A stretch of DNA of 64,000 nt from an uncultured Candidatus Saccharibacteria bacterium (lineage in GTDB: Bacteria > Patescibacteriota > Saccharimonadia > Saccharimonadales > JALRHH01), in assembly GCA_964639295.1 (NCBI GenBank), contig CAZXDT010000001.1, positions 52,784-116,783 on the forward strand, given 5' to 3'. Each line of letters opens with the position of its first letter. Within the stretch, counting starts at the first letter, position 1. The position numbers and the translations under genes are program-made. This document shows, piece after piece, positions 8,975-39,889 of the stretch. Under the pieces are notes generated by a model. It did not search any database. It was given only the letters and a program-made list of their open reading frames with translations, and was not told where the DNA came from.

Positions 8975-9042
8975 TAGTTCGCATCTATTAGGGGGAGCCA
9001 TAAGCATTTTGACCTCTGTTTAGGCAGAGGTTTTTGTTTTGG
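8975..9042 (+). repeat. Dispersed intergenic repeat, copy 1 (head TAGTTCG..GGGGGAGCCATAAGCA plus terminator hairpin CCTCTG-TTTAGG-CAGAGG and T-run)
   Basis: Member of a family of at least 9 copies. Hairpin 9013-9030, T-run 9031-9040. Confidence 0.7.
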
Positions 9043-9103
9043 TTATGCTTGCAAATGACTAAAATGAGAGTATAAATAGTTTCTAAATTGAGGAGGCATA
9101 AAT

Positions 9104-9403
9104 ATGACTGAGCGTAGCGGTGAAAAGTTATCACTTAGAGAAGAAATTGTTGACGGTGCACGTGCACTAGGCGAGTTTGCTGTATATCTAGCTAAAAAAG
9201 TAGCAGGTGTACCTATGCCCCCAGATCCAGCAGAAGGACGTATCTACATTCCTGGAGACGGCAGGACACCATTACCAGCCACAGATTCTCCAAAGACCGA
9301 AGCAGAATGGGCAGCCATTTTAGGTGGTGATTTAGGCGAATTTGCTAATGACTACGAAGATGACCCGGAAGATGCCTGGGCGGAGCTCAGAAAGCAGATT
9401 TAG
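9104..9403 (+). CDS. Hypothetical small acidic protein
   Basis: AGGAGG RBS 6-11 nt upstream. TAG stop is fused to the head of repeat copy 2. Confidence 0.5.
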   Translation: MTERSGEKLSLREEIVDGARALGEFAVYLAKKVAGVPMPPDPAEGRIYIPGDGRTPLPATDSPKTEAEWAAILGGDLGEFANDYEDDPEDAWAELRKQI

Positions 9404-9470
9404 TTCGGAAGTCGTTTATTAGTGGGAGCCAAGCATAAGCACTTTGTAAGAGCAAAGTGTTTTTGTTTTG
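9401..9470 (+). repeat. Dispersed repeat, copy 2 (TAGTTCGGAAGTCGTTTATTAGTGGGAGCCAAGCATAAGCA plus hairpin CACTTTG-TAAGAG-CAAAGTG and T-run)
   Basis: 35-nt head identical to copies at 35971 and 37668; terminator subtype B. Confidence 0.75.
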
Positions 9471-9484
9471 GTACAATAGTCTCA

Positions 9485-9730
9485 ATGAAGAGAGTAATCC
9501 TGTTCACATATTTCATACTCAGTATTACTACTATTAGTGCTTGGCTAATTTGGAGCACAGCTAGAAATGCATGTGACGGCTTCTTTAATGGTGGACATGC
9601 TGTAATTTGCTATCCGGATGATCAGACACAACTTGGAATCGTACTATACGGTATTTTCATAGGTATTGTGTTTACTGGTGTGTCTTTGCTCGTGATGAAG
9701 TTGCTTGGTTTTAGTCTTACGAGAAAGTAA
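9485..9730 (+). CDS. Small membrane protein (2 TM)
   Basis: ATG chosen downstream of the repeat. The ORF-track GTG start lies inside the repeat/terminator. Confidence 0.4.
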   Translation: MKRVILFTYFILSITTISAWLIWSTARNACDGFFNGGHAVICYPDDQTQLGIVLYGIFIGIVFTGVSLLVMKLLGFSLTRK

Positions 9731-9744
9731 CTTCATGTGTTCTA

Positions 9745-9808
9745 ACCTCATCCACTAGGAGGAGCCATAAGCATAAGCACTTTGCGATAGCAAAGTGTTT
9801 TTGTCTTG
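9745..9808 (+). repeat. Dispersed repeat, copy 3 (..CCACTAGGAGGAGCCATAAGCATAAGCA plus hairpin CACTTTGC-GATA-GCAAAGTG and T-run)
   Basis: Same subtype B hairpin as copy 2. Confidence 0.7.
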
Positions 9809-9824
9809 ATGATAAAATACAGTC

Positions 9825-10313
9825 ATGGAATTATTCGACCTAGTAAATCAGAATGACGAAGTTATCGGTACTACTCATAAAGCAGAGGCACATGGCAAAA
9901 ACCTACTTCACAGAGTTGCTGCTGTATTCGTGTTCGATGGTGAAGGTAAACTTTACGTACAACTCCACAAGAAAAGTGGAAAATATGACCACTCAGTTGG
10001 GGGACATGTATCTCAAGGGGAGAATTATGACCAAGCCGCCAAGAGAGAGTCAGAAGAAGAGCTTGGAATTACACAGCCATTAGATTTCGTTTCAAGATTT
10101 TATTCTGACGAAGGTGATATGCGTCATATGTTTGGGATTTACGAATGTATAGCTGAAGATACCTGGAAATTTGTTCCTAATGATGAAGTAGAAGAAATTA
10201 CTCCTATGACAATTATGGCTATACGTAAAGACATGGAACAAAGACCAGAGCTATTCACAGGCGGATTTATTAACACCATGTCCGAATACTGCAGGGTTAA
10301 GCAAATAGTCTAG
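9825..10313 (+). CDS. NUDIX hydrolase
   Basis: Nudix box GGHVSQGENYDQAAKRESEEELGI (Gx5Ex7REUxEExGU). Confidence 0.7.
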   Translation: MELFDLVNQNDEVIGTTHKAEAHGKNLLHRVAAVFVFDGEGKLYVQLHKKSGKYDHSVGGHVSQGENYDQAAKRESEEELGITQPLDFVSRFYSDEGDMRHMFGIYECIAEDTWKFVPNDEVEEITPMTIMAIRKDMEQRPELFTGGFINTMSEYCRVKQIV

Positions 10314-10325
10314 ACTAAACCTGGA

Positions 10326-10377
10326 CTCGGAAGTCGATTACTAGGGCAAACTGAAAAACGCCTACTGGTCGTAGGCG
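10326..10377 (+). repeat. Degenerate copy 4 of the dispersed repeat (CTCGGAAGTCGATTACTAGGG) plus hairpin CGCCTAC-TGGTC-GTAGGCG
   Basis: Partial head match. The hairpin lies between convergent genes and has a T-run on the minus strand. Confidence 0.45.
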
Positions 10378-10847
10378 GCTTGGAGGGCGGCGATGTCGAT
10401 CTTTTTCATCTGTAGCATGACTGCCATTGCTTGACCTGACTTAACTTTGTCTGGGCCCATTAATAAGTCACCCATTTGTTTAGGAACAATTTGCCAACTA
10501 ATACCAAACTTATCCTTACACCAACCGCACTGTTCTGATTCTGGTACTGCCGACAACTTTTCCCAGTAGTAATCTACTTCTTCTTGTCCATCACAGTTCA
10601 CAATAAACGACACTGCTTCATTTGGTTTGAATATAGGGCCACCGTCTAAGCACACGAACTCATGACCATCTAAATCAATGACACCGTGTAAAATTTTGCC
10701 CTCAAAGCCCTTCATAGGACCCTCCGGGACTTCCTCCGGATATCGATCCATGGCTACTATTTTTGAATTCTTGAATACGCTAGCGTAGTAGTTCATTGCT
10801 TCTTCGGCATTGCGATCAAACCATAGCCCAGTAGAAATTTTTTGCAT
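10362..10847 (-). CDS. VOC-family (PhnB-like / 3-demethylubiquinone-9 3-methyltransferase-domain) protein
   Basis: MQKISTGLWFDRNAEEAMNYY..FGISWQIV signature of the PhnB-like VOC family. Confidence 0.65.
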   Translation of the reverse strand: MQKISTGLWFDRNAEEAMNYYASVFKNSKIVAMDRYPEEVPEGPMKGFEGKILHGVIDLDGHEFVCLDGGPIFKPNEAVSFIVNCDGQEEVDYYWEKLSAVPESEQCGWCKDKFGISWQIVPKQMGDLLMGPDKVKSGQAMAVMLQMKKIDIAALQAAYDQ

Positions 10848-10931
10848 ACAAATACTCCTATTTACTTGTTATTAGCTTAGCAAGCTTAATGAAACTATGT
10901 GCAATATTTATCACAGTAAGGACTGTGTCAC

Positions 10932-12500
10932 CTACCAGTGTTTTACAACTCGCCCAATAACTTGATCGATCTTAAGTGGGCCGTTCAGCCTGGAATCAAC
11001 AGAACCTGGTCGATTGTCACCGGCCACGAACACTTCATCTGACGCCAACTTAATGTCTATCAAGGCGTCTGAAGTATCTTTATGCATAGTTTTCTCCCAT
11101 CCAGAACCTTTATCAACCTTGAAGCCACGAACGTTATCTTCGTTATACACTGTCACAACGCCGTTGATAACAGTTACGCGTTCTCCTGGCAAACCGAGCA
11201 CACGCTTGACGATAATATGCTCGTTTTCTTGGATCTGCTCCGGGGAAACAAGGCCATACACCGCGTTAATTACGACTACATCACCACGATGCAGTGTCGG
11301 ACGTTCATGATTAAAATGGGCAATTGTCTGGGGTAGTCGATACACCAACATGGACTGTTTATCCTGGAAAGTTGAAGTCATACTTTCTCCATTCACATGG
11401 TAGATAGTGGCGACGTTGTTTTTCACCGTAAAATACAAGCCGATAACGAATAGAGGTATCAGCCAAAAAATACCGATGTACTTTAAGGTCGTCTTGTTTC
11501 GCCTAACCCACACAATAAACTTTTTGCTAAAAAACCGTTCCAGTGCGTAATCAACTCTTTCAAGCAAGATTTCAACATAGAGCGCTATACGTTGCCTGAA
11601 CGTATTCATTCTCAATAAACCATGGTAGACCAGCCTCCTATAATGTTGAACATATAGCTGCATACATCTATACGTCAGAATCAGCAACGTAATTACCAAG
11701 ATAATAGCAAAGATGAGTTTCGATACATTCCTACCAAGCCCAAAAGTACGATAGATGAGATTAAATAGACTATCGTTAAAGTTATCCGGAACTATTTGTT
11801 CATGTACAACTTGCTGCCCAGACTGATACTGTGAGACCCTTAGTAACTGTTGCCTTGGATATGAAACGTATCGCATATCAAACGGTAGTAATTTTGATGT
11901 ACTGTACGCAAGTTTACCTGAAACATAATAGTCAACTTTATTTAACGAGTCATAGTCAGGACTGGCGGGGATACCGACGAGTAGCGAGGCCTTGTCCCTA
12001 AGTGTTGTAGGTGCCTTAATATAGGCTTTTTCACTCCCTTGAACTAATTCACATTCAACTTTAGGCACACAGACCGGGTTCTCTGGATCGAGTAGTAATA
12101 CTGCTGGTCGGTTGGCATTTGGTACATTTGTAAGTTTGGGTGAAATAAGTTCCAGGACGACTCGACCATCACTGGGTATTATGGTCCCAACCTTGGTCCA
12201 GGTATCACCGTTTAGAACAGTAGAACCAATGATCCGACAACCACCTTCAAGTGATTCATTAACCTGATTAATCCTGACCTGCAACGATTGGCCACGAGTT
12301 CCTAGCTTGGCATACACATTTTTTGCGGTACTAATGTCTAGTATTGCAGTGTATGAGCCGTCAACACTCTCGCTACATCCGGTAGTAAAATTAAACTCTT
12401 TTGAATCTGCAAATGCAGTCCCGCAATGACTGATTATTAGTACTAACGCTAAAACTAATAAGGAGATAAAGCTCGAAAGCTGTGTTCTGATTCTTATCAC
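10932..12500 (-). CDS. lepB: Signal peptidase I with a large N-terminal extracytoplasmic extension
   Basis: SPase I boxes present: GESM (catalytic Ser), VKRVLGLPGE, GDNRPGSVDSR. N-terminal signal peptide, ~220-aa domain, then 2 TM segments before the catalytic domain. Confidence 0.75.
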   Translation of the reverse strand: MIRIRTQLSSFISLLVLALVLIISHCGTAFADSKEFNFTTGCSESVDGSYTAILDISTAKNVYAKLGTRGQSLQVRINQVNESLEGGCRIIGSTVLNGDTWTKVGTIIPSDGRVVLELISPKLTNVPNANRPAVLLLDPENPVCVPKVECELVQGSEKAYIKAPTTLRDKASLLVGIPASPDYDSLNKVDYYVSGKLAYSTSKLLPFDMRYVSYPRQQLLRVSQYQSGQQVVHEQIVPDNFNDSLFNLIYRTFGLGRNVSKLIFAIILVITLLILTYRCMQLYVQHYRRLVYHGLLRMNTFRQRIALYVEILLERVDYALERFFSKKFIVWVRRNKTTLKYIGIFWLIPLFVIGLYFTVKNNVATIYHVNGESMTSTFQDKQSMLVYRLPQTIAHFNHERPTLHRGDVVVINAVYGLVSPEQIQENEHIIVKRVLGLPGERVTVINGVVTVYNEDNVRGFKVDKGSGWEKTMHKDTSDALIDIKLASDEVFVAGDNRPGSVDSRLNGPLKIDQVIGRVVKHW

Positions 12501-12514
12501 GGGGTAGTCACATT

Positions 12515-12568
12515 ATTAACAAAATAGGGTGATCGTGATACGGTCACCCTATTTATTATTTTAATTCT
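12515..12568 (-). terminator. Intrinsic terminator for the 12569-13045 gene
   Basis: Minus strand reads hairpin GGGTGA..TCACCC followed by TATTTTGTT. Confidence 0.5.
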
Positions 12569-13045
12569 TTATTCTGTTGTAAGCTTCCAGCTAGTACGGT
12601 GGCCGTTCTTTTCACCACTCACAACTACACCAACATCATGTGGATAGTATATCGGACCTGCGTAGTAGCGATATGTTTTAGGCCCGTCAGTATCGTAAGT
12701 TGTCCACATCTGACCATCCCTACCTGAAGATCTACCGGCTCCAACATACAAGGTTGAAGCAGCACCCCAATTGTCGTTTATTGTCAGTGCACAACCACGA
12801 CCTGCGGCGTTCTTGTAGTTATACAGCTTAAAGCCATAACCGTCTTGAGTGTGTTTTAGGTTATAGCCTGAGCCACAAATTGACGAGTAAGCTCCTGCAG
12901 CATCCGCCTTAAGCTTGCCTTCGTTCTGGCCTTTGTTTTTATTCAGAACGAGAAGCCCCGCTCCTGCAGCTACAACAGCAACAGCGACTACTGCTATGAG
13001 GGCAACGTGAGCGATACCTTGCTCAGATTTAATCCTAAGTTTCAT
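12569..13045 (-). CDS. Secreted hypothetical protein (2 Cys)
   Basis: N-terminal Ala/Val-rich signal/anchor; no recognisable motif. Confidence 0.45.
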   Translation of the reverse strand: MKLRIKSEQGIAHVALIAVVAVAVVAAGAGLLVLNKNKGQNEGKLKADAAGAYSSICGSGYNLKHTQDGYGFKLYNYKNAAGRGCALTINDNWGAASTLYVGAGRSSGRDGQMWTTYDTDGPKTYRYYAGPIYYPHDVGVVVSGEKNGHRTSWKLTTE

Positions 13046-13186
13046 ATTCTTTTTCCTTCTTTATTGTTAGAAATATAACTCAGGGCAATTATACCAACTA
13101 TTCATAAGCATAATCAAACTTCAAACTCTAAACTGTGGATAAGTAATCCTATCCACTATGAGGAATGTAGTAAAAGAAGACATCGA

Positions 13187-14155
13187 CTATTTAACAAAGG
13201 TTCCGGTTGTAGCAAGAGTAATTTGCTTGAAGAGGGTTGCACCCAGAGACATATCATAGCCAGCTGAGCGAGATTTGCTAAATATTACGAGCACATACGG
13301 ACGCTTGCCGTCATCAATAATCGCCGCATCATGAACACGGTCCGCAAGGTAGCCAGGTTTGTGGTACACCTTGATGCCAGCTGAAATGGTATTGGTGATA
13401 AATTCTACTTCTTTAGCCTGAGCCATATAGGAGAGTAGGAGGTCCGTATGTTCTTTATTGATTAGTTTATGTTGGTATAGATCACTGAGCAAAGTCGCTA
13501 CGCTTGCTGGGGTAATGGTATTTGTATCGGGATTATAGTTAGCGATCCCAATAGAGTTTGCGTATTGTGCGAGCTCAGCATGGCTCATAACGCCATTATT
13601 GAAGTCATTCCAGGCTTCGTTGTCACTATCGATAATCATCGCTTTAAGGGCATCCTGCGCAGTTCGTGTACCGACTGATTGTGCAAGTGTGGCTTTGCCT
13701 TGCTCAACATCGTGTAAATACGCAATTGCCGTTAGAAGCTTGGCTGTACTAGCGGCCACGAACGGATTCTGCACGCCATATGTTTGGCTATCGCCCGTCT
13801 TGATATCAATTATCGCAACACCTATATCCATATAAGGGTATTTTTGTATTTCCGCATTAATAGCTGTGTTCATTGAAGTGAAATCGAGCTTCTGTACAAC
13901 CTCTGGCTTAGGAGTGGCTGCCTGAACCTCACTCGTGTTCACGCCTTGAACAGAACCACCTTTGTGACCAGGGAGTCCAAAGATAAATCCTGCTGCCGTA
14001 AGTAGTCCTACCATGACGAACAGTGCCGGAAGTTTACTATGGCGAGTGACAGGCTGCTGCCTTTGTGCAACACCATGTGCACGGTTAGGATAACTTACCG
14101 TACGGACGATTTGAGGCTGCTGTGGTTGTTTCTTTTGTGAATTAAATAAAAACAT
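13187..14155 (-). CDS. Serine hydrolase, class A beta-lactamase / DD-peptidase-like
   Basis: ASTAKLL (SxxK), SDN motif (IIDSDNEAWN), membrane-anchored N-terminus. Confidence 0.65.
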   Translation of the reverse strand: MFLFNSQKKQPQQPQIVRTVSYPNRAHGVAQRQQPVTRHSKLPALFVMVGLLTAAGFIFGLPGHKGGSVQGVNTSEVQAATPKPEVVQKLDFTSMNTAINAEIQKYPYMDIGVAIIDIKTGDSQTYGVQNPFVAASTAKLLTAIAYLHDVEQGKATLAQSVGTRTAQDALKAMIIDSDNEAWNDFNNGVMSHAELAQYANSIGIANYNPDTNTITPASVATLLSDLYQHKLINKEHTDLLLSYMAQAKEVEFITNTISAGIKVYHKPGYLADRVHDAAIIDDGKRPYVLVIFSKSRSAGYDMSLGATLFKQITLATTGTFVK

Positions 14156-14497
14156 AATTATGATGGACGAACCATTCTATTGTACTGTATCTCCCTTATG
14201 GTTGCGAGTGGGTTTATTACCCCTATACGGTAAGATTTCTCATTGAGAGGAACCTGAATGAGGCCTAGTCTGCAAACATACTTAAGCGGGGGGTAGTATG
14301 AAAAAGACGTATCAAAACGTAGACAATGACAAGAAGGTGAAGAGACAATCAACACCTACCACTTGGGACAAATTCTTGTTGTATTAAACCTGAGATTACC
14401 TTGAGTTTGTGATAAATTTCACTGCTTGGTACAAACAACTCGAATACGATGATAGTGCAACCAACGTAAAGGCAAAGGGACAAAGGAATGAAGAAAA

Positions 14498-14647
14498 CCA
14501 ATGTACTCAAAAACCTAAGCGTGCGTGACGCCATGAGTTTCACGGACCTCTTTGAGGAGATCTCCAGTGACTGGGAACTCAAGGCAGAGCGCTTGCAAAA
14601 TCGCAGGTGGAGGGAGCTGAAGCGTAAGCTCTATTGAAGCTTGGTAC
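14498..14647 (+). CDS. Candidate unannotated small ORF (49 aa, MKKTNVLKNLSVRDAMSFTDLFEEISSDWELKAERLQNRRWRELKRKLY)
   Basis: Below the ORF-track size cut-off. AGGAA just upstream; followed by the hairpin/T7 terminator at 14661-14691. A second MKKT..LY ORF (29 aa) lies at 14297-14386. Confidence 0.25.
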
Positions 14648-14660
14648 TAAAACAACAAAA

Positions 14661-14691
14661 CCGTCCGAGTTGCCACTCAGGCGGTTTTTTT
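14661..14691. terminator. Bidirectional intrinsic terminator (hairpin with T7 on the plus strand and TTTTGTTGTTTT on the minus strand)
   Basis: CCGTCCGAGT-TGCC-ACTCAGGCGG stem with two bulges, then TTTTTTT. Overlaps the crp stop codon. Confidence 0.55.
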
Positions 14692-15397: not shown

Positions 15398-15420
15398 CTT
15401 CTTGTAAATTACTGTTTAAA

Positions 15421-15957: not shown

Positions 15958-16084
15958 GTCACATACTCCTCATTTAATCTAAGTATCAGCTTAGTCCTGC
16001 ACAGAGAGAGTTGCAAGTCCTTTATGCTAGTACTCAGATAAACTACAGGTTAGAAACTTCAATATTAGGTACAATAAGGGTAAT

Positions 16085-19394: not shown

Positions 19395-19417
19395 GGTGTA
19401 TGTAGAACTAATGTCAA

Positions 19418-20022: not shown

Positions 20023-21720
<1,698 letters not shown>

Positions 21721-29934: not shown

Positions 29935-29964
29935 CATGAACTCTTTAAGATTAGCACAATAACC

Positions 29965-32978: not shown

Positions 32979-33027
32979 ACCCTACCTCTGTTAATACATT
33001 GACATTATTCTTGTTTGTTGGTATTAT

Positions 33028-33579: not shown

Positions 33580-33649
33580 CCTTAATTTCAGGCTAGACAT
33601 TGTCCTGCCGGGCTGCCAAACTAAACATAAGCATTACTGAGGGCATTAC

Positions 33650-34975
33650 ATGAGTTTTAGCCAGTTTATATTGGACTCACACGAGCAGTACCGCCAGGAG
33701 GTACGCCTGCGTAATGGTTGGCTCATAAGATTACGGTGGTTGTACCTACTGTTGCTCGGGGGTGTGGCAGTTGCCACTTCATATACCTCTTCTATGGAGA
33801 CACAGCCGTATCGTCGGTTTGTGATAACACTAATTTTGAGTGGGCTGTCGCTTAACTTTGTACTGTGGCTTATCCTGAAGTTTAGGCAACTGTCCACGTT
33901 AGCTTCACACCAAATTGCAGTTATTCAAATCTTATTGGACGCCGGGCTAGCGGCATCAGTCGTCTACTTCCAGGGTGGTATTGATAGTCGCGCGACACTT
34001 TTGTTCGCGTTACCTATTTTGAATGCTGGGGTGCTGTTTGTGCCAATCTTTGCCTATACAGCCGCTGCACTTAATGCCTTGGTGTACACAGGTGCAATGG
34101 TGTTATACCAGCATCATAACCCAGCTAGCTATCCCTTGAAGGACGTTATTTTACCGGCTGTTTTCTATTCGGCTGTGTTTTTACTTCTTGCGATTATTGT
34201 CTCTGGGTACACCGAGCGTAATCGCGCAAAGGAGCGAGAGAGTTCATACGCAGAACTACTGTCGCTGTTGCGCCACCAACTTCACCACCCAACAGGGGTT
34301 ATTGCTGCAATCGTGGAGATGTTAGAGCAAGGGGCGAGCTTCAGTAAACTCACAGCCAAAGAAAAAGAGTATATCAAACAACTCAAGTACGAAAACCATC
34401 GTATACACACCATGATTGCTAACTTACTCAAAACAGCAGATATTGACGAGAAGATATCCCACGGCAGAGAACATTGGACTGATGTACATCTCATGAACGT
34501 TATTACTGACTGTTCCAGCGCGGTCGCCGTAGCATATAAGCGCATAGGCGATTTAGACCTACAAGTACCAAATGAAGACATAACTATGCGTGGCGATCCA
34601 GAGCAGCTACAGCTCGCATTTGAGAACATTGTGGAGAATGCCTTTAAATACAGCGACAAGGGCCACAAAGTTACTATTAGGTTACTTGCTAAGCGCGTAC
34701 CGACTATCGAAATAGATATTGAAGATCACGGTGAAGGTATTAGTGACAAGCAACAAAGAAACCTACTGACTGCGTTTAATAAGCTTGAGACATCCAGTAA
34801 AGACAGCTATGAGGCGATCAATACATATGCCATGGGCCTGGGCCTGTATATCAGTAAAATGATTATTGAGCAGCACGGTGGGCAATTCAGCTTACAATCA
34901 AAGGTAGGTCAGGGAACTAAGGTAATTATTAAGGTCAAACGTGACATGTGGAGGTACTATTATGGACAAAAGTAA
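33650..34975 (+). CDS. Membrane sensor histidine kinase
   Basis: 6 TM N-terminus, H-box (LRHQLHHPTG), HATPase_c with G1/G2 boxes (DHGEGI, GLGLYISK). Confidence 0.8.
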   Translation: MSFSQFILDSHEQYRQEVRLRNGWLIRLRWLYLLLLGGVAVATSYTSSMETQPYRRFVITLILSGLSLNFVLWLILKFRQLSTLASHQIAVIQILLDAGLAASVVYFQGGIDSRATLLFALPILNAGVLFVPIFAYTAAALNALVYTGAMVLYQHHNPASYPLKDVILPAVFYSAVFLLLAIIVSGYTERNRAKERESSYAELLSLLRHQLHHPTGVIAAIVEMLEQGASFSKLTAKEKEYIKQLKYENHRIHTMIANLLKTADIDEKISHGREHWTDVHLMNVITDCSSAVAVAYKRIGDLDLQVPNEDITMRGDPEQLQLAFENIVENAFKYSDKGHKVTIRLLAKRVPTIEIDIEDHGEGISDKQQRNLLTAFNKLETSSKDSYEAINTYAMGLGLYISKMIIEQHGGQFSLQSKVGQGTKVIIKVKRDMWRYYYGQK

Positions 34976-35363
34976 GGCACGCATTCTATATATTGAGGAT
35001 TACCCGGTGGTACAGACGATGTACGTCGATGCACTACGGAGTCATGGGTTTACAATTGATGTAGCAAGCGACGGCAAAACTGCTCTTGAACTGGTACAGG
35101 CCAACGCCTACGACGTCATTCTCCTGGATCTACTGCTCCCTCGGGTCACCGGGCTAGAGTTCTTACGGGAATTTAGAGCAAAAGACTATAATGGTGAGGT
35201 GGTCATTCTGTCTGATTTTGATGACCCCAACACCATTCAAGAGACAGTTAAGCTCAAAGTAGAGCACTACTGGATCAAGGTAGAGAATACGCCACACCTG
35301 TTAGCACAGCGGTTAGATGAGCTAATAAATGGTATTGCTGACACGGACAAAACACAAGCATAG
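34962..35363 (+). CDS. Single-domain response regulator (receiver only)
   Basis: ARILYIEDYP..DVILLDLLLP receiver motifs; no output domain. Confidence 0.8.
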   Translation: MDKSKARILYIEDYPVVQTMYVDALRSHGFTIDVASDGKTALELVQANAYDVILLDLLLPRVTGLEFLREFRAKDYNGEVVILSDFDDPNTIQETVKLKVEHYWIKVENTPHLLAQRLDELINGIADTDKTQA

Positions 35364-35535
35364 TCATATCTCTTTACAGATACGTTATAAACCTATAAAA
35401 TAACCCCCGTTAGTTTGACCCTAAAAGTACATGTTACACACGTGTTACACTGGCTGGGAAGAGCAGCCCGACAAAAAGTCACGCCTTTTTGCCGGCGCGA
35501 TGAGAAACCCGAGAAATGGGTGTCTCATGCATTAA

Positions 35536-35610
35536 TCCGGGGTAGCGCAGTGGTAGCGCAGTTGACTGTTAATCAATTGGTCGCGGGTTCGAATCCCGCC
35601 CCCGGAGCCA
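35536..35610 (+). tRNA. tRNA-Asn (anticodon GUU), CCA encoded
   Basis: Acceptor TCCGGGG/CCCCGGA, anticodon loop CTGTTAA, T-loop GTTCGAATC. Confidence 0.9.
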
Positions 35611-35626
35611 AGGTACTTACGCTTTA

Positions 35627-35654
35627 CAAAATACCACTTATGTGGTATTTTTAG
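35627..35654 (+). terminator. Intrinsic terminator after tRNA-Asn
   Basis: ATACCAC-TTAT-GTGGTAT then TTTT. Confidence 0.5.
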
Positions 35655-35658
35655 TTTC

Positions 35659-35973
35659 ATGAGTTTTTCAAACGAACATATTGGTGGTGGAGCTGATGGT
35701 GGTGTATTTAATATGTATATAGAACTGCCTTCTTGGATGAACCATGAAGATGTTGGTACCGCACTTGTAGAGATTGATGCATCAGTACAGGGCATAAAAG
35801 AGCCTCCAGTAGCAAAGGTGCACTCTGACTATCCTAGACCCGCTCAGATAGATATTGAAGACTATCGCCGTTTTTATGTTGAGTTCGAGGATTACGCAAC
35901 AGAGGAAGACATCAAAGCAGCAGTTCAGATTGTGTCTGGAGCAATCAAAAAGCTTCGATATGCTGACGCATAG
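35659..35973 (+). CDS. Hypothetical small acidic protein
   Basis: Follows tRNA-Asn. TAG stop fused to repeat copy 5. Confidence 0.45.
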   Translation: MSFSNEHIGGGADGGVFNMYIELPSWMNHEDVGTALVEIDASVQGIKEPPVAKVHSDYPRPAQIDIEDYRRFYVEFEDYATEEDIKAAVQIVSGAIKKLRYADA

Positions 35974-36042
35974 TTCGGAAGTCGTTTATTAGTGGGAGCC
36001 ATAAGCATTTTGACCTCTGTTGAAGCAGAGGTTTTTGTTTTG
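35971..36042 (+). repeat. Dispersed repeat, copy 5 (full head plus hairpin CCTCTG-TTGAAG-CAGAGG plus T-run)
   Basis: Head identical to copies 2 and 6. Confidence 0.75.
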
Positions 36043-36118
36043 ACTCTCAAAGGGGGAACTTGGTATTTATCGATACATAGCTTATATTACAAAGCATAAA
36101 CGTCAACAAGGCTCTTAA

Positions 36119-37633
36119 ATGCTAAAAATAAAGTTACTAAAGTCAGATCAAAAGGGCTTTTCGCACCACTTCATACTACCGCTAATCGTAATTACAGTCA
36201 TCGCAGGTATTGGTACGTATATAATTACGAAATCGAAGGCGGCAACAAGTGGGCCAGTTATTGCACAAAGAAGTCAAATTAGAGCTTTTTCAAGTGGTAA
36301 ATGCCTGGAGAATGATAATGGCACGAAAGCACTCGGAAATCTTATTGTCATCCGACCGTGCGATGCTAAGAAACCTGTATCCCAACTGTGGACTATTATG
36401 GGTGACAGGTCACTTCGTAATGCCAACGGCTATTGCCTTGATACCCAAGCAGGCATAATGACCCCAGGTACAAAGATTGTCATGCGCAATTGTACGGGCA
36501 ATGTAGACCAACAATGGGTAATTTTTACTGCTGATCAAACTATTCGTAACCCCCTAACTGGTCTGTGTCTCGCAAACGAAGCTGGCTCGTCACAAGTTAT
36601 CATAGATAGATGTGCTGAGAGTAAAACCCAACAACACTGGAACGCTGCTATTTACACAGGACAAAAACTACCTTCAGTGCCTACAGTGCCTAAAAAAATC
36701 GCTCCTACTGCTGGAGCAACGAGCAGATTCACGGTCGGAACATTCAACGTGCTGGGTTATCACTACACAATACCTGGTTCAAAATCATCCTTACAGAACT
36801 ATCCTGGTTTTCGTGATGGTATTACACGAATCGATTGGGCTGTGAAAATGTTCGAAGAGAACAAGCTAGACGTTGTGGGTTTACAAGAATTTGAGCCAGA
36901 ACAATATGGCCGTGTTAAAGCAATATACGCAGGGGATACAACTGGAAACTGGTTAATCTACCCAACCCCTATGCGGCAAGATACCAACAATGTTTCAACA
37001 GGTGCTATTATGTGGCGGAAAAATAAATTCACTATGATCGCTTCAGGGCACCGGTTAATTAGCAGAGCTAACTTTACGGACAAAGATGGGAATGAAGTTA
37101 CAAAAGATGCAGAAGCTCCTTGGGTAAAGCTCAAAGAAAACAGTACTGGCAAAGTATTTTATGTAACAAATATCCATGATGCCGTAACCACGCCTACTGT
37201 AAATAATGCTCAAACCCGAGTTGCAAACGAGACTGAAAATCTAGCCGATATAAAGAAAAAGTTAGCTGACGCACCCGTCATTGCGACCGGTGACTTTAAC
37301 TCTGGTTTTAGCTGGGACGCTACTCGTGATGCAGGGATACCGAAAACAAGCATAACCTACTGTATCCTAACCCAAGGTGGCTTTATGACCAATGCATATG
37401 ATATTTCACGTTATATCAAGGCGGGCGTTCAAGGAGAATATTTCAGTACGACTAATCGTACGACTATCCCGGCCTGTCCATCTTCTAGTAACCCAGATCG
37501 ATCGGACGTGGACCATATATATGTTAGCAACAAGGTAAATGTTCTGAACTGGATTGTTGTACCAGGAGAGACAGATCCCGCACTTAGGGTTTCAGATCAT
37601 AAACTCCATTACTCTAGCGTCAGCATTCAATAG
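36119..37633 (+). CDS. Secreted ricin-B (beta-trefoil) lectin fused to an endonuclease/exonuclease/phosphatase (EEP) domain
   Basis: Signal/TM; three QxW repeats (SQLW, DQQW, QQHW); EEP motifs GTFNVLG, VVGLQEF and C-terminal SDH. Confidence 0.7.
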   Translation: MLKIKLLKSDQKGFSHHFILPLIVITVIAGIGTYIITKSKAATSGPVIAQRSQIRAFSSGKCLENDNGTKALGNLIVIRPCDAKKPVSQLWTIMGDRSLRNANGYCLDTQAGIMTPGTKIVMRNCTGNVDQQWVIFTADQTIRNPLTGLCLANEAGSSQVIIDRCAESKTQQHWNAAIYTGQKLPSVPTVPKKIAPTAGATSRFTVGTFNVLGYHYTIPGSKSSLQNYPGFRDGITRIDWAVKMFEENKLDVVGLQEFEPEQYGRVKAIYAGDTTGNWLIYPTPMRQDTNNVSTGAIMWRKNKFTMIASGHRLISRANFTDKDGNEVTKDAEAPWVKLKENSTGKVFYVTNIHDAVTTPTVNNAQTRVANETENLADIKKKLADAPVIATGDFNSGFSWDATRDAGIPKTSITYCILTQGGFMTNAYDISRYIKAGVQGEYFSTTNRTTIPACPSSSNPDRSDVDHIYVSNKVNVLNWIVVPGETDPALRVSDHKLHYSSVSIQ

Positions 37634-37667
37634 TATAGATATTGCTGCTCCGTATATTTTGGCATCA

Positions 37668-37736
37668 AGTTCGGAAGTCGTTTATTAGTGGGAGCCATAA
37701 GCATTTTGACCTCTGTTTCGGCAGAGGTTTTTTGTC
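37668..37736 (+). repeat. Dispersed repeat, copy 6 (full head plus hairpin CCTCTG-TTTCGG-CAGAGG plus T-run)
   Basis: Head identical to copies 2 and 5; lies between convergent genes. Confidence 0.75.
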
Positions 37737-37739
37737 TTG

Positions 37740-38576
37740 CTAAAATTCTATATTGTCAATTAGGTGTCGCATTATCTCGTCTGGGTTAGTGACTATAGCA
37801 GTAGAAGTTGCGTTGCATAACCCTCGAACACAGATTTCAAGCTCATCGCCAGGTCTAGCGCTTGGTATTACCTCAGATACAGATCTTGTCTGGACGCCTC
37901 GCACATATTGGTCAATTGGTGTCCAGCCCAGGTTACTATAAGACCGTGTTTGGTCAGGAATGTAGTCCACTAATTGTGGCGCTAGACCGACGATGGCACC
38001 AAACATCACTAATGGTTCATACAATGACTCACCAGATTCATTATCTTCAAGATAGCTAAAGCCCACGATATGTCGAGCCAATGATACTCGACCTATTGGC
38101 TTGTTAGTCCAATCGATGATAGCTCCGAGATCAAGTTTCATTGCCAACAAGCTTGCTATTGGGGCCGCTAGAACATCCGTGCTCTCAGGAATCATAGTTC
38201 TGCTCGGCGTTGCACTTTCAGATACGAATGGATTAAGGGGGTCAATTTTTCCTTCGAGACAGAACATTGCTTTGTCCATCACAAAAAATGATGCATGTTG
38301 TGATGGAATACGCATAGTTGGGGTGCTTGCTACATTTGCATGTGTTGTATTTCCCTCTGAGGTGCGTCTACCTGTAAGTATATGAATCTTGTCTTCGAAT
38401 GAAGTTACAACAGTAGCAGAAAGCACTGGCTGCCATAGATTATCCAAAGCAAATGGATCAGCAAATATTTCGTTAGCATCTGCTGGTGAATCAAAGCCTG
38501 GCAAGTAGGGTGAGAGCTCTCGTATTTCAGCCTCGGTGTACTGTCGGCGAGCATGAATTAAAGGGTTAATTTCCAT
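37740..38576 (-). CDS. Hypothetical protein
   Basis: 278-aa ORF with coding-like composition; no motif recognised. Confidence 0.4.
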   Translation of the reverse strand: MEINPLIHARRQYTEAEIRELSPYLPGFDSPADANEIFADPFALDNLWQPVLSATVVTSFEDKIHILTGRRTSEGNTTHANVASTPTMRIPSQHASFFVMDKAMFCLEGKIDPLNPFVSESATPSRTMIPESTDVLAAPIASLLAMKLDLGAIIDWTNKPIGRVSLARHIVGFSYLEDNESGESLYEPLVMFGAIVGLAPQLVDYIPDQTRSYSNLGWTPIDQYVRGVQTRSVSEVIPSARPGDELEICVRGLCNATSTAIVTNPDEIMRHLIDNIEF

Positions 38577-38626
38577 GATTCAAAACTTTTGCATATAATA
38601 ACATATTTATTGTATGAAGTAAATTA

Positions 38627-38665
38627 CCTTCACCTCTGTTTCGGCATGGGTCTTTTATTTTGTTT
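38627..38665 (+). repeat. Degenerate copy 7 of the repeat tail (CACCTCTGTTTCGGCATGGGTCTTTTATTTTG)
   Basis: Left hairpin arm and loop are conserved; right arm is mutated. Confidence 0.4.
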
Positions 38666-38679
38666 GATATGATGTCCCT

Positions 38680-39243
38680 ATGAGAAATGCAATTATCCTT
38701 CATGGACAGCCAAGCAAAGAAGAATACTACGACCCTACAATGCCGAGCATGAGCAATGCACACTGGATACCTTGGCTACAAGGACAGTTACTTAAAAATG
38801 ATATTGAAGCCGTAACACCTGAAGTACCGTACGCCTTTGAGCCCAAGTGGGACCTATGGTTAAAAGAAGTTGAACGGTTTGATATAACTCCAGAAACTCT
38901 AATTGTTGGGCATAGTAGGGGTGGTGATTTCTGGCTAAGATACCTGAGCGAACGCCCAGAACTTAAAGTCGGTAAAGTTGTTCTTGTTGCACCATCACTT
39001 GGATTCTTAACACTCAACGACAATTATTTTGGTCAGTTTGAGATTGATCCTAATCTCGCAGAGCGTACGAATGGCATCACCTTATTTCATTCCGATAATG
39101 ATGGGCAAAACATGATTGAAACTGCAGAAAAACTAATCAGAACTATTAGCGGGCTCAAGCACCAGCAATTCCATTTAGGTCACTTTACATCTGGAAGCAT
39201 GGGTACTACAGAATTTCCGGAGCTTCTTGATGAAGTACTGTAG
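38680..39243 (+). CDS. YdeN/RBBP9-like serine hydrolase (alpha/beta fold)
   Basis: ILHGQPSKEE..IVGHSRGG nucleophile motif, ~190 aa. Confidence 0.6.
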   Translation: MRNAIILHGQPSKEEYYDPTMPSMSNAHWIPWLQGQLLKNDIEAVTPEVPYAFEPKWDLWLKEVERFDITPETLIVGHSRGGDFWLRYLSERPELKVGKVVLVAPSLGFLTLNDNYFGQFEIDPNLAERTNGITLFHSDNDGQNMIETAEKLIRTISGLKHQQFHLGHFTSGSMGTTEFPELLDEVL

Positions 39244-39310
39244 TTCGAACCTCGTCCACTAGGGGGAGCCATAAGCATTTTGACCTCTGTTTCGGCAAGG
39301 GTTTTGTTCT
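39241..39310 (+). repeat. Dispersed repeat, copy 8 (variant head TAGTTCGAACCTCGTCCACTAGGGGGAGCCATAAGCA plus weakened hairpin)
   Basis: Starts on the TAG stop of the upstream gene. Right hairpin arm is CAAGGG instead of CAGAGG. Confidence 0.65.
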
Positions 39311-39480
39311 AAGTGCTCATGGTTATCACTGGTAATTATGATTTAATATAGGCATTATTGTGAGACACCTCCAATAGTATTTTGACAGAGTGGTAATCGG
39401 TTGCGCTCACAAATCTATTACGTAATGTGGGCTTGTGTGCGTAACCGAATGTTTTGGTTATTAGCTATCGGGAGATTGTT

Positions 39481-39723
39481 ATGTCCAGAGAAGTCATCTT
39501 AGCGATTGCGATCGTTGCGATTGCTATTGGAGTGATCATCTTTTTCGTTGGCGTCGTTTGTGCCGTTGGCCCTGACGATGGCGTCAATGTGCAACTTGGC
39601 ACATTCCTTGGCGTAGTTGGATTTGCCCTTGTCATGTTCGGCATCGTCGGCATAATCAAAGCACCCAACAACGAGCCTGGAGATGGTCAAGAAAGTGTTG
39701 CATTTTGCAATACTCGATGCTGA
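39481..39723 (+). CDS. Small membrane protein
   Basis: GGGAG RBS; two TM helices. Confidence 0.35.
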   Translation: MSREVILAIAIVAIAIGVIIFFVGVVCAVGPDDGVNVQLGTFLGVVGFALVMFGIVGIIKAPNNEPGDGQESVAFCNTRC

Positions 39724-39866
39724 CTGCATGATGCGTTTTATATGAGGGGGATTCGGACATCGATGATCTGTATCAGAGCAGCCGCTCACCCCTCCGCACC
39801 TACCAATCTTTACACTCTGTCACTCAACCCAAGTTTTCATAAACTGAAGATTTAGTTTGAGCCTTT

Positions 39867-39889
39867 GTTCGGAAGTCGTTTATTAAGGG
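39867..39889 (+). repeat. Head-only fragment (copy 9) of the dispersed repeat (GTTCGGAAGTCGTTTATTAAGGG)
   Basis: 23-nt match to the head; no hairpin follows. Confidence 0.45.

What the first reader, a model, noticed from the sequence alone, without database searches (positions are those of the whole stretch)
8975..39889. Dispersed ~70-nt repeat whose conserved head begins on the TAG stop codon and ends in an intrinsic terminator
At least nine copies were found (8975, 9401, 9745, 10326, 35971, 37668, 38627, 39241, 39867). A near-identical 35-nt head (TAGTTCGGAAGTCGTTTATTAGTGGGAGCCATAAGCA) is followed by a hairpin plus T-run of two subtypes: CCTCTG-N6-CAGAGG or CACTTTG-N4-6-CAAAGTG. In four copies the TAG of the head is the actual stop codon of the upstream gene (9401, 35971, 39241, and within 30 nt at 37668). 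This implies the element inserts in register with, or supplies, the stop codon. The head is far more conserved than the hairpin, so it is not just a terminator. It could be an RNA-binding or sRNA target 3'-UTR module, a retained 3' end of mobile gene cassettes, or a MITE-like element. All copies cluster in the two tRNA-adjacent islets of small accessory genes.
Basis: seen in the sequence. Interest (0 to 1): 0.68.

Follow-up and report, generated by a model that had tools for sequence, protein, structure and literature searches.

The report
tRNA-end mimic marking mobile gene cassettes
The repeat is the joint between single-gene cassettes stacked behind tRNA genes in a Saccharibacteria chromosome: a copy-like imitation of the 3' end of tRNA-Asn followed by a terminator and the next gene's promoter. 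It looks like the recombination site of an integron-like gene-capture system that has not been described.

Summary
Six full copies and three partial copies lie on the + strand, only in two islets directly downstream of tRNA-Gln and tRNA-Asn.

The head is not a structured RNA. It looks like a tRNA 3' end: a T-loop-like GTTCGAA at its start and GGAGCCA, the acceptor end of tRNA-Asn, at its end. The rest of the repeat is an A-tract, an intrinsic terminator and the promoter of the next gene.

Related Saccharimonadia carry the same module in arrays of up to 16 or more unrelated small genes behind tRNA-Asn or tRNA-Ser. Gene content differs between relatives.

The sequences that follow a head's CCA also follow genuine tRNA-Asn CCA ends. 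Head types and trailer types assort freely, and the breakpoint is always at GGAGCCA.

One cassette (Ser_hydrolase) is shared with a Microsaccharimonas genome. There it sits exactly between the tRNA-Asn CCA and the native trailer. Homology to the window starts in the trailer and stops at the head's CCA.

Best reading: trailer + ORF + head cassettes move by site-specific recombination at a 7-bp core. This works like an integron but lacks attC, an adjacent integrase and promoterless cassettes. No recombinase was found, and homologous-recombination shuffling remains a rival.

The parts
8836..8910 (+). tRNA-Gln (UUG); anchor of array 1
   Evidence: ARAGORN; Rfam
8923..8941 (+). Displaced copy of the tRNA-Gln 3' end (GAATCCCTCCGCCCAGCCG), 12 nt after the gene
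   Evidence: Read from sequence. Same arrangement of tRNA plus displaced 3' fragment in L020, L037, L040 and L070
8975..9000 (+). Head, short class, with no ORF upstream: TAGTTCGCATCTATTAGGGGGAGCCA. It is 24 nt from G to CCA, the length of a tRNA from G53 to CCA
   Evidence: The same ORF-less short head opens the array behind tRNA-Ser in L040
9001..9103 (+). Trailer type i: TAAGCA A-tract, terminator hairpin 9011-9032, T-run. It is followed by TTATGCTTGCAA...TATAAA (promoter-like) and an SD for the next ORF
   Evidence: Terminator scan; conserved GGTTATGCTTGCA in other loci
9104..9403 (+). Cassette ORF, 99 aa, no Pfam family. Its stop TAG is the first triplet of the next head
9401..9431 (+). 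Head type A (TAGTTCGGAAGTCGTTTATTAGTGGGAGCCA)
9432..9484 (+). Trailer type ii: AGCATAAGCA, terminator hairpin 9437-9462, T-run, then TGGTACAAT (extended -10) 7 nt before the ATG
9485..9730 (+). Cassette ORF, 81 aa, hydrophobic, no Pfam family
9737..9767 (+). Head type C (GTGTTCTAACCTCATCCACTAGGAGGAGCCA); the ORF stop lies 9 nt upstream, in frame
9768..9824 (+). Trailer type ii: terminator hairpin 9775-9800, T-run, then TAAAAT 6 nt before the ATG
9825..10313 (+). Cassette ORF, 162 aa, NUDIX hydrolase
   Evidence: Pfam
10325..10346 (+). Head remnant (ACTCGGAAGTCGATTACTAGGG) at the end of array 1. It lacks GGAGCCA and runs into CAAACTGAAAAAC and the terminator of the convergent gene
   Evidence: 16 of 20 matches to head A. 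A similar junction TAGGGGGCAAACTAAAAGG occurs at L069 2750
35536..35610 (+). tRNA-Asn (GUU), ending ...CCCCGGAGCCA; anchor of array 2 and proposed insertion point
   Evidence: The orthologous tRNA-Asn anchors arrays in L020, L037, L061/L064, L067/L070 and L072-L074
35611..35658 (+). Trailer type iv: terminator ATACCAC/GTGGTAT whose 3' arm and T-run form TGGTATTTT (extended -10) 7 nt before the ATG. The same trailer type follows a head in L020 (4291-)
35659..35973 (+). Cassette ORF, 104 aa, no Pfam family; stop TAG is the first triplet of the head
35971..36001 (+). Head type A
36002..36045 (+). Trailer type i (terminator hairpin 36012-36033, T-run)
36119..37633 (+). Cassette ORF, 504 aa: ricin-B lectin plus endonuclease/exonuclease/phosphatase domain
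   Evidence: Pfam
37667..37697 (+). Head type A with AAG as first triplet; the ORF stop lies 36 nt upstream, in frame
37698..37741 (+). Trailer type i (terminator hairpin 37708-37729, T-run)
37740..38576 (-). ORF of 278 aa in the opposite orientation inside the array, no Pfam family. It lies between a complete and a truncated type-i trailer
38629..38679 (+). Truncated trailer type i (degenerate hairpin CCTCTG/CATGGG, T-run), then TATGAT 6 nt before the ATG. This is the 5' part of the Ser_hydrolase cassette
   Evidence: 70% identical to the L074 trailer that directly follows tRNA-Asn
38680..39243 (+). Cassette ORF, 187 aa, Ser_hydrolase; stop TAG is the first triplet of the head
   Evidence: Pfam; homologues
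39241..39271 (+). Head type B (TAGTTCGAACCTCGTCCACTAGGGGGAGCCA). Homology to the Microsaccharimonas cassette ends exactly at 39271
39272..39306 (+). Trailer type i, with degenerate hairpin (CCTCTG/CAAGGG)
39481..39723 (+). Last + strand ORF of array 2, 80 aa, hydrophobic
   Evidence: An 80-aa gene also follows in the array of the P0003 contig, but homology was not tested
39865..39889 (+). Head remnant (TTGTTCGGAAGTCGTTTATTAAGGG) at the end of array 2, without GGAGCCA or a hairpin
   Evidence: E = 0.04

Best explanation
The ~70-nt repeat is the joint between single-gene cassettes in hypervariable arrays anchored at tRNA genes of Saccharimonadia (Patescibacteria).

Anatomy of the joint:
1. A 'head' that imitates the 3' end of a tRNA. 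It starts with a T-loop-like (T/A)AGTTCGAA and ends in GGAGCCA, which is the acceptor end, discriminator and CCA of tRNA-Asn.
2. A 'trailer' made of an A-tract, an intrinsic terminator and, directly on or after the T-run, the promoter of the next gene. That gene is often leaderless.

The mobile unit is trailer + ORF + head.

Proposed mechanism. Cassettes are inserted, lost and re-assorted by recombination whose crossover lies in the 7-bp GGAGCCA. This core is shared by the genuine tRNA-Asn 3' end (the entry site, playing the role of attI) and by every head (playing the role of attC). A recombinase encoded elsewhere in the genome would act in trans. Each cassette brings its own terminator and promoter, so the array is a string of insulated one-gene transcription units.

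Shown:
- the anatomy of the joint;
- the restriction of copies to the arrays;
- the unrelated cargo;
- the equivalence of head CCA ends and tRNA-Asn CCA ends;
- free assortment of head and trailer types with the breakpoint at the CCA;
- one filled-versus-empty site with cassette boundaries at GGAGCCA.

Inferred: that the exchange is site-specific and enzyme-mediated, the identity of the enzyme, promoter activity and leaderless expression.
For: Restriction and significance. Copies occur only in the two tRNA-adjacent islets, all co-oriented with the tRNA, and none is expected by chance.

The same module in other species. It occurs in species-level relatives (L020, L037, L040, L046, L055) and in metagenome contigs (L061/L064/L066, L067/L070, L065, L068/L069). 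There it follows almost every small + strand gene in arrays that begin at tRNA-Asn or tRNA-Ser.

Hypervariable cargo. The locus orthologous to array 2 (histidine kinase 78% identical) carries at least 16 different cassettes, and all-against-all blastp finds almost no shared cargo. Cargo genes are small accessory enzymes.

Equivalence of head and tRNA end. Each trailer type found after a head is also found directly after a genuine tRNA-Asn CCA or after a displaced genuine fragment:
- type i after tRNA-Asn in L072/L074;
- type ii after displaced tRNA-Asn fragments in L067, L070 and L037;
- type iv after tRNA-Asn in the window and after the fragment at L020 2733;
- type v after tRNA-Asn in L061;
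- element X after tRNA-Asn in L020 and L070.

Assortment. 16 of the 20 combinations tabulated by hand (left part A, B, L020-type or tRNA-Asn, against five of the six trailer types seen; a sixth occurs only after L020-type heads) are seen, always joined right after GGAGCCA.

Cassette as a unit. In L074 the Ser_hydrolase cassette (475-1125) lies between the tRNA-Asn CCA and the type-v trailer. Removing it in silico restores the contiguous tRNA-Asn + trailer sequence of L061, which is near-identical over the first ~90 nt. Compared with the window copy, identity is 70% in the trailer, 77% in the ORF and 87% in the head, then drops to 37% immediately after the head's CCA (window 39271).

Head conservation. 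The type-A head is identical over 29-35 nt in more than 10 copies from the window and at least two other organisms whose flanking kinase is only 78-83% identical.

Not an RNA fold. The head has no RNA structure of its own, while the hairpin covaries as a terminator should.

Tight packing. 11 of 35 ORFs stop on the head's first triplet and 22 of 35 stops are in frame with it. A TAnnnT box ends 4-10 nt (mostly 6-8) before the called start codon in 25 of 49 cassettes, counting some mis-called GTG/TTG starts; SD-like motifs are seen in only 7 of 49.
Against: No recombinase was found.
- Pfam on 58 of the 59 inferred genes of the window and on 67 array ORFs, plus the flanking genes of related loci, shows no integrase, transposase or resolvase. 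One search displayed only 25 of the 45 families hit.

The head and its surroundings show no inverted-repeat recombinase-binding architecture and no attC-like fold.

The filled-versus-empty comparison is between species, not within a population, and rests on a single shared cassette.

The junction types could be old and few, made by rare microhomology events and then spread by homologous recombination.

More distant Saccharimonadia (L078, L080) have similar gene arrays without a recognisable head.

The excess of ORF stops 3, 6 or 9 nt upstream and in frame with the head is not explained by the model.
Confidence: 0.55

Rival explanations
1. Portable homology for ordinary homologous recombination, as proposed for the promoter/stem-loop (PeSL) cassettes of T4-type phages. 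The conserved head and trailer merely give RecA enough identity to swap or duplicate the genes between them, for instance after DNA uptake from relatives. No dedicated recombinase or specific crossover site is involved.
For: No recombinase gene lies in or next to any array. Each ORF is flanked on both sides by 35-60 nt of conserved sequence that combines a terminator and a promoter. Heads are homogenised within a genome: all L020 heads are of one type, and type A dominates the window and L061. That pattern fits gene conversion.
Against: Head types and trailer types share only GGAGCCA (plus a few bases) at their junction, yet 16 of 20 combinations tabulated by hand occur with the break at that point. 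Seven bp is far below what RecA-dependent exchange needs. A genuine tRNA-Asn end has no further identity to heads to the left of GGAGCCA, yet it carries the same trailers.
Confidence: 0.25
2. Passive scars. The arrays are decayed remains of serial Campbell-type integrations of larger, integrase-carrying elements into tRNA genes, as in tRNA-linked genomic islands and Prochlorococcus tycheposon islands. On this reading the heads are old displaced tRNA 3' fragments with no present function.
For: Genuine displaced tRNA 3' fragments lie next to the anchoring tRNAs: window 8923-8941; L020 2718-2733; L037; L040; L070. The short-class heads have exactly the tRNA length from G53 to CCA. By eye, the L040 head matches the 3' end of the L037 tRNA-Asn at 19 of 24 positions. 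Successive integrations that push older elements outward, leaving partial tRNAs, are described for tycheposons (bioRxiv 10.1101/2020.12.28.424599).
Against: There is one head per single small gene and no integrase remnants. Heads behind tRNA-Gln and tRNA-Ser are Asn-like, not derived from the local tRNA. Type-A heads are identical across the window and at least two other organisms, while neutral scars should have diverged. In L074 the head next to the native trailer is not the native tRNA 3' end, so the crossover was at GGAGCCA and not in the T-loop.
Confidence: 0.1
3. An RNA-level 3'-UTR module. The head, transcribed just after the stop codon, would be bound by a protein or small RNA, or would mimic a tRNA 3' end for a processing or CCA-recognising enzyme, setting mRNA stability or 3'-end formation.
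For: The position is fixed between stop codon and terminator, the orientation is always sense, and the stop codon is in register with the head. The AAGCA tract pairs with the U-run in the predicted fold. This reading could coexist with the DNA-level role.
Against: The head has no significant fold (z from +0.85 to -0.42), no consensus structure or covariation, and no Rfam hit. It supplies only one strand of a tRNA acceptor/T-arm, so it cannot form a minihelix. ORF-less heads open arrays at 8975 and at L040 1904. The RNA reading does not explain why the same trailers follow tRNA-Asn genes or why cassette homology ends at the CCA.
Confidence: 0.07
4. A MITE- or REP-like selfish repeat that has spread through intergenic regions by transposition.
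For: It is short, non-coding, multi-copy and contains a hairpin.
Against: There are no terminal inverted repeats. The orientation is single. No copy lies outside the two arrays in 64 kb. The left border always abuts an ORF end and the right border abuts the next ORF's promoter.
Confidence: 0.02

Closest known systems
Integrons (chromosomal cassette arrays; attI x attC recombination by IntI)
   Same: Arrays of co-oriented, mostly single-ORF cassettes with very diverse, largely uncharacterised small cargo. Each cassette ends in a conserved recombination-site-like element that abuts or overlaps the stop codon. There is one fixed entry point at the head of the array. Cassette order and content differ between close relatives.
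   Different: No intI next to the array, nor anywhere in the 64 kb. The element is not an attC: it has no R''/L''-L'/R' imperfect palindrome and no GTTRRRY core. The entry site is the 3' CCA end of a tRNA gene. Each cassette carries its own terminator and promoter instead of depending on a common Pc.
tRNA-anchored genomic islands built by serial integration (Islander-type islands; Prochlorococcus tycheposons, bioRxiv 10.1101/2020.12.28.424599)
   Same: Flexible genes pile up directly downstream of tRNA genes. Partial tRNA 3' copies separate the modules. New arrivals would push older ones outward. The host is a streamlined genome with few classical mobile elements.
   Different: Those elements are kb-sized and carry their own tyrosine or serine recombinase, often with replication genes, and their att repeats are copies of the local tRNA. 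Here the units are single genes without a recombinase. The separator is a diverged Asn-type pseudo-end even behind tRNA-Gln and tRNA-Ser, and the junction is at the CCA rather than inside a tRNA loop.
PeSL (promoter-early/stem-loop) modules flanking ORFs in hyperplastic regions of T4-type phages (Arbiol et al. 2010; recalled from memory, not read here)
   Same: Each small accessory ORF is bracketed by a conserved terminator-like stem-loop plus a promoter, giving self-expressed modules that can be shuffled.
   Different: PeSLs are a phage feature, with no tRNA-end mimic and no fixed anchor at a tRNA gene. Shuffling there is attributed to homologous recombination.
Rho-independent (intrinsic) terminators
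   Same: The 3' half of the repeat is a GC-containing hairpin with an upstream A-tract and a downstream T-run. It covaries between subtypes.
   Different: A terminator alone does not explain the 31-nt head or the conservation peak at GGAGCCA(T)AAGCA.

Membership tests
Intrinsic terminator | Stable GC-containing hairpin followed at once by a T-run, on the sense strand after an ORF | tested here: met
   Terminator scan finds 9011, 9437, 9775, 36012 and 37708 (6 found against 0.9 expected in islet 1). Fold z = -1.8 to -3.9 with the hairpin included. Stems covary between subtypes.
Integron | intI tyrosine recombinase gene adjacent to the array | tested here: not met
   No Phage_integrase or other recombinase family in 58 of the 59 inferred window genes, in 67 array ORFs (top 25 of 45 families shown) or in genes flanking related arrays. 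tblastn with XerD gave nothing.
Integron | attC site: imperfect palindrome R''-L''...L'-R' with core GTTRRRY / RYYYAAC | tested here: not met
   The head starts GTTCGAA or GTTCGGA, with C at position 4 where R is required. The only palindrome is a short perfect terminator stem. There is no consensus fold in the head.
Integron | Promoterless cassettes expressed from a common Pc | tested here: inconclusive
   Every cassette is preceded by a terminator, and in 25 of 49 cases by a TAnnnT box 4-10 nt (mostly 6-8) before the called start codon. This argues for own promoters, but no transcription data are available.
Integron | Array of co-oriented single-ORF cassettes, variable between relatives, each ending in the recombination site | tested here: met
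tRNA-integrating genomic island / tycheposon | Element carries its own integrase and is flanked by a full tRNA and a displaced copy of that tRNA's 3' part | tested here: not met
   No integrase was found. Genuine displaced fragments exist only next to the anchor tRNA. The repeated heads are Asn-like even behind tRNA-Gln and tRNA-Ser.
tRNA gene or tRNA-like structure | Cloverleaf, or at least an acceptor/T-arm minihelix | tested here: not met
   ARAGORN and Rfam call only the two real tRNAs. The sequence upstream of each head is unrelated coding sequence, so no 5' strand is available.
Known RNA family (Rfam 15) | Match to a curated covariance model | tested here: not met
   Nothing besides tRNAs reached the gathering score in the window. 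In six related loci at E <= 0.1 there was nothing but tRNAs and one sub-threshold antisense match over the L040 tRNA-Ser.
MITE / REP-type dispersed repeat | Terminal inverted repeats, both orientations, scattered through intergenic regions | tested here: not met
   All copies are on the + strand and only in the two arrays.
PeSL-type regulatory cassette | Conserved stem-loop plus promoter bracketing each small ORF in a hyperplastic region | tested here: met
   The resemblance is functional only: the phage context and sequence family do not apply.

The most novel reading that the evidence does not exclude
Saccharimonadia possess a previously undescribed gene-capture platform that works like an integron but is built from tRNA parts. 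The 3' CCA end of tRNA-Asn would be the insertion site. A pseudo-tRNA-Asn 3' end on each cassette would be the partner site, with a 7-bp GGAGCCA crossover core. Cassettes would be self-expressed, often leaderless, single genes. An unidentified trans-acting recombinase would drive exchange, possibly together with the structured ~135-nt element X that occupies the same junction in relatives. This would be a main source of accessory-gene turnover in these reduced genomes.
Probability: 0.4. Interest if true: 0.85.

Novelty: new variant of a known kind. Interest (0 to 1): 0.7.

Why it matters
Saccharibacteria and other Patescibacteria have tiny genomes, and, as far as I recall (not checked here), few recognised mobile elements. 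How they acquire and exchange accessory genes is poorly understood.

A cassette platform anchored at tRNA genes, with insulated one-gene expression units and a tRNA-end mimic as the joint, would explain strain-level gene-content variation. It would also account for the assembly breaks seen here at these loci, where short-read contigs end at the heads.

The module gives a simple sequence tag (the head) for finding flexible genes in metagenomes.

If a dedicated recombinase exists, it would be a new site-specific system with a defined 7-bp core. It could serve as a natural landing pad for genetic work in this group.

Tried and rejected
Searches that led nowhere:
- Phage origin. Megablast of 8500-11000 against phage genomes gave no match. 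Two head patterns are absent from IMG/VR viral contigs. The window is a bacterial chromosome with ATP synthase, CysRS and AddA.
- Structured RNA in the head. Single-sequence folds are not better than shuffles. RNAalifold on 26 copies gives no consensus, partly because the two hairpin types misalign. There is no Rfam hit.
- A conserved C-terminal coding sequence of one paralogous family. Rejected, because upstream ORFs are unrelated.
- A recombinase in cis. Pfam on the window, on array ORFs and on flanking genes of related loci, plus a tblastn probe, were all negative.
- Retro-copying of transcripts. Rejected, because the shared unit is trailer + ORF + head, not the expected transcript of ORF + head + downstream trailer.
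- Crossover in the T-loop (classical tRNA-integrase sublocation). Rejected for the L074 event, because the head next to the native trailer is not native tRNA sequence.
- Exact-protein look-ups of window cassettes for alternative contexts. Two were not on record. One returned only the same arrangement, with contigs broken at the head.
- Literature. Four full-text searches on Saccharibacteria or Patescibacteria with cassettes, integrons, islands or tRNA found no description of this.
- The genome-collection scan returned 58 loci, of which only 7 were true homologues (L020, L037, L040, L046, L047, L055 and partial ones). The rest were chance matches to the 17 specified bases.

Full report
**What is in the window.**

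The exact 37-nt head occurs at 35971 and, with one mismatch, at 37667; none is expected by chance. Repeat finding and a profile built from the copies identify six full copies, at 8975, 9401, 9737, 35971, 37667 and 39241 (nhmmer E = 1e-17 to 1e-21). There are three fragments: head remnants at 10325 and 39865, and a hairpin remnant at 38629. All are on the + strand, and nothing comparable exists elsewhere in the 64 kb.

The copies fall into two islets that begin at tRNA-Gln (8836-8910) and tRNA-Asn (35536-35610). The rest of the window is ordinary chromosome: F-type ATP synthase, CysRS, an AddA-type helicase, penicillin-binding proteins and two-component systems. The closest named relatives are Candidatus Saccharibacteria, Saccharimonadia and Microsaccharimonas.

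- Only three heads are near-identical (type A).
- Three of the nine copies are fragments.
- The head's first triplet is the stop codon in three copies, not four.
- The most conserved block is the junction TAGnGGGAGCCA(T)AAGCAT, not the whole head.

**Anatomy.**

Each full copy has three parts.
- A head of 26-31 nt. It begins (T/A)AGTTCGAA or GTTCGGA, which resembles a tRNA T-loop, and ends in GGAGCCA. GGAGCCA is also the 3' end of the tRNA-Asn gene in this window (CCCCGGAGCCA).
- A short A-rich linker, (T)AAGCA(T).
- A hairpin and T-run that score as an intrinsic terminator. There are two stem types that differ by compensatory changes: CCTCTG/CAGAGG and CACTTTG/CAAAGTG.

The others are 5 nt longer.

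The head alone does not fold better than shuffled sequence (z from +0.85 to -0.42). It has no consensus structure in 26 aligned copies and matches no Rfam family.

Directly on or after the T-run there is usually a -10-like box. In many cassettes it ends 6-8 nt before the ATG, and Shine-Dalgarno motifs are rare: a TAnnnT box ending 4-10 nt before the called start was found in 25 of 49 cassettes and an SD-like motif in 7 of 49 across loci (which includes some mis-called GTG/TTG starts). The strict two-hexamer promoter scan is not enriched, so promoter function is an inference.

The ORFs between the modules are unrelated to each other. They are:
- 99 aa, no Pfam family;
- 81 aa, hydrophobic;
- a NUDIX hydrolase;
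- 104 aa, no Pfam family;
- a 504-aa ricin-lectin/EEP protein;
- a Ser_hydrolase;
- 80 aa, hydrophobic.

**The module elsewhere.**

One pattern scan of species-representative genomes returned mostly chance hits, but also true copies in several Saccharibacteria genomes: L020, L037, L040, L046, L047 and L055. A metagenome scan with the type-A head, together with look-ups of the histidine kinase that flanks array 2, added L061/L064/L066, L067/L070, L065 and L068/L069.

In all of these the module follows small + strand genes at intervals of 0.4-1.5 kb. Where the start of the array is visible, it is a tRNA: tRNA-Asn in L020, L037, L061/L064, L067/L070 and L072-L074, and tRNA-Ser in L040.

The locus orthologous to array 2 (kinase 78% identical) has at least 16 cassettes over 12 kb, and none is shared with the window. 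Cargo genes are small accessory enzymes and regulators, and many have no Pfam family. Those with a family include NUDIX (x4), HAD, TetR, DUF1801, histidine phosphatase, peptidase S51, PNPOx, GNAT and M23.

Short-read contigs of the window's own population end at the heads, as expected for a repeat. The head was not found in viral contigs.

**The head behaves as a tRNA-Asn 3' end.**

The sequence that follows the head's CCA comes in a few discrete trailer types. Every type is also found directly after a genuine tRNA-Asn CCA or after a displaced genuine tRNA-Asn 3' fragment.
- Type i (TAAGCATTTTGACCTCTG...) follows tRNA-Asn in L072/L074.
- Type ii (AGCATAAGCACTTTG...) follows displaced fragments in L067, L070 and L037.
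- Type iv (...ACAAAATACCAC hairpin) follows tRNA-Asn in the window, the fragment at L020 2733 and a head at L020 4290.
- Type v (...AAGTCAGAAC hairpin) follows tRNA-Asn in L061 and heads in L067 and L074.
- A ~135-nt structured element (X) follows tRNA-Asn in L020 and L070 and heads in L020, L064, L066 and L067.

Tabulating by hand four kinds of left part (head A, head B, the L020-type head, genuine tRNA-Asn) against five of the trailer types (a sixth follows only L020-type heads), 16 of 20 combinations are present. The switch from one to the other is always immediately after GGAGCCA. To the left of that heptamer the partners share little or nothing.

**A cassette as a unit.**

The Ser_hydrolase cassette of the window (38629-39271) has an 86%-identical protein in a Microsaccharimonas assembly. 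There it is the first cassette. The order is tRNA-Asn ...GGAGCCA, then a type-i trailer, ORF and head ...GGGAGCCA, then the type-v trailer.

Deleting L074 475-1125 in silico gives a sequence that aligns end to end with the uninterrupted tRNA-Asn + type-v trailer of L061, near-identical over the first ~90 nt. Between the window and L074, identity is 70% in the trailer, 77% in the ORF and 87% in the head. It drops to 37% in the 50 nt after the head's CCA.

In a third genome (gene table only, no DNA), a Ser_hydrolase 94% identical to the window's sits third in the array, among other neighbours.

The unit that is shared and relocated is therefore trailer + ORF + head, bounded on both sides by GGAGCCA. 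This excludes retro-copying of the transcript, which would carry the downstream trailer rather than the upstream one. It also excludes a crossover in the T-loop for this event.

**Interpretation.**

The simplest account is a cassette system. The genuine tRNA-Asn 3' end serves as the entry site, each cassette ends in a pseudo-tRNA-Asn 3' end, and exchange takes place in the shared 7-bp core. Each cassette brings the terminator for whatever lies upstream of it and the promoter for its own gene.

This works like an integron but is not one. There is no intI, no attC architecture and apparently no reliance on a common promoter (see the membership tests).

Arrays behind tRNA-Gln (window) and tRNA-Ser (L040) both open with an ORF-less, short-class Asn-type head a few tens of nt after a displaced fragment of the local tRNA. 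This suggests that such a head can act as the entry site away from tRNA-Asn.

Type-A heads are identical in many copies across organisms whose flanking kinase is only 78-83% identical. That argues for constraint or recent exchange rather than neutral scars.

The weak point is the enzyme. No recombinase was found in the window, in the arrays or next to them. I therefore give the site-specific reading about 0.55. Homologous-recombination shuffling of pre-existing junctions gets about 0.25, passive scars of larger elements about 0.1, and a primary RNA-level role about 0.07.

**Stop codon register.**

Across loci, 11 of 35 cassette ORFs terminate on the head's first triplet, and 22 of 35 stops are in frame with it (binomial p = 3e-4). 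TAG is a common stop in the core genes of the window (24 of 58), so its use is not unusual in itself.

Immediate termination in frame 1 would be favoured by selection for short C-terminal additions. The excess of in-frame stops 3-12 nt upstream (for example TAGaatTAG and TAGTAG) is not explained.

**Limits.**

Only 64 kb of this genome and fragments of others were available. The filled-versus-empty comparison is between species and rests on one shared cassette. More distant Saccharimonadia with similar accessory-gene arrays lack a recognisable head; they show other GGTTCTAAT/GGTTCCAAT...CCA-like sequences after stop codons. The family may therefore be broader and more diverse than the profile used here detects. 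Four full-text searches found no description of such arrays in Saccharibacteria, but the searchable library is incomplete.

Noticed in passing
window 8614-8835: A pseudo-copy of the tRNA-Gln 5' part lies just upstream of the intact gene (8614-8645 is 100% identical to 8834-8865). It has a 37-nt insertion in the anticodon loop, and the T-arm is split by ~105 nt (GGGG ... TCGAATCCC). It runs into a TATAAT box for the real tRNA-Gln. The origin is unknown.
   Followed up: partly
L070 4126-4259; L067 3874-4002; L061 14437-14574 and 16885-17025; L020 2596-2740 and 3598-3740 (not in the window): A ~135-nt non-coding element ('X') is inserted exactly after the CCA of tRNA-Asn or of a head, behind its own terminator. 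Its consensus fold has 38 pairs, 20 of them with compensatory changes among only 6 sequences, and there is no Rfam match. One long stem is made of the host tRNA-Asn variable/T-arm sequence and its complement. The element usually ends in a displaced genuine tRNA-Asn 3' fragment. It may be an unknown ncRNA or a recombination structure tied to the cassette system.
   Followed up: partly
L061 about 10060-10410: A small ORF that looks GIY-YIG-like by eye (not scanned against Pfam) is inserted just upstream of tRNA-Asn, with a duplicated copy of the tRNA 5' end (ATTCCGGGGTAGCGC). Its stop codon TAG lies inside the tRNA's 5' end. This is another case of an ORF ending in tRNA sequence, and it hints at nuclease-stimulated recombination at this locus.
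   Followed up: no
window 36119-37633: A cassette-encoded 504-aa protein combines a ricin-B lectin domain (with a weak CdtA/C hit) with an endonuclease/exonuclease/phosphatase domain. The layout is reminiscent of lectin-plus-nuclease toxins.
   Followed up: no
window 37740-38576 (- strand): The only reverse-oriented gene inside array 2 (278 aa, no Pfam family) lies between a complete and a truncated type-i trailer, and the head that should precede the Ser_hydrolase cassette is missing. It looks like an insertion or inversion into a trailer.
   Followed up: no
cassette starts in window (9485, 9825, 35659, 38680) and related loci: -10-like boxes, often TG-extended and partly formed by the terminator's 3' arm and T-run, end 6-7 nt before the ATG with no Shine-Dalgarno motif. 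This suggests leaderless mRNAs for many cassettes.
   Followed up: partly
L080 4400-15200; L078 4500-9000: More distant Saccharimonadia have similar co-oriented arrays of the same kinds of accessory genes (Ser_hydrolase, S51, NUDIX, GNAT, His_Phos) but no detectable head. L080 has a different ~60-nt repeat after three genes (GGYTCTAG...GAGTACTTTCCAACGGTCTA...) and other GGTTCTAAT/GGTTCCAAT...CCA motifs after stops.
   Followed up: partly
window 3295-5560: Two adjacent, overlapping paralogous GT4 glycosyltransferase genes account for the 68-nt and 28-nt direct repeats D5 and D17. This is ordinary gene duplication.
   Followed up: yes
L059, L060, L062, L063, L071, L073, L075-L077: Short-read contigs from several samples end within a few bases of a head or just before the array. 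These arrays are therefore likely to be systematically missing or fragmented in Saccharibacteria MAGs.
   Followed up: no
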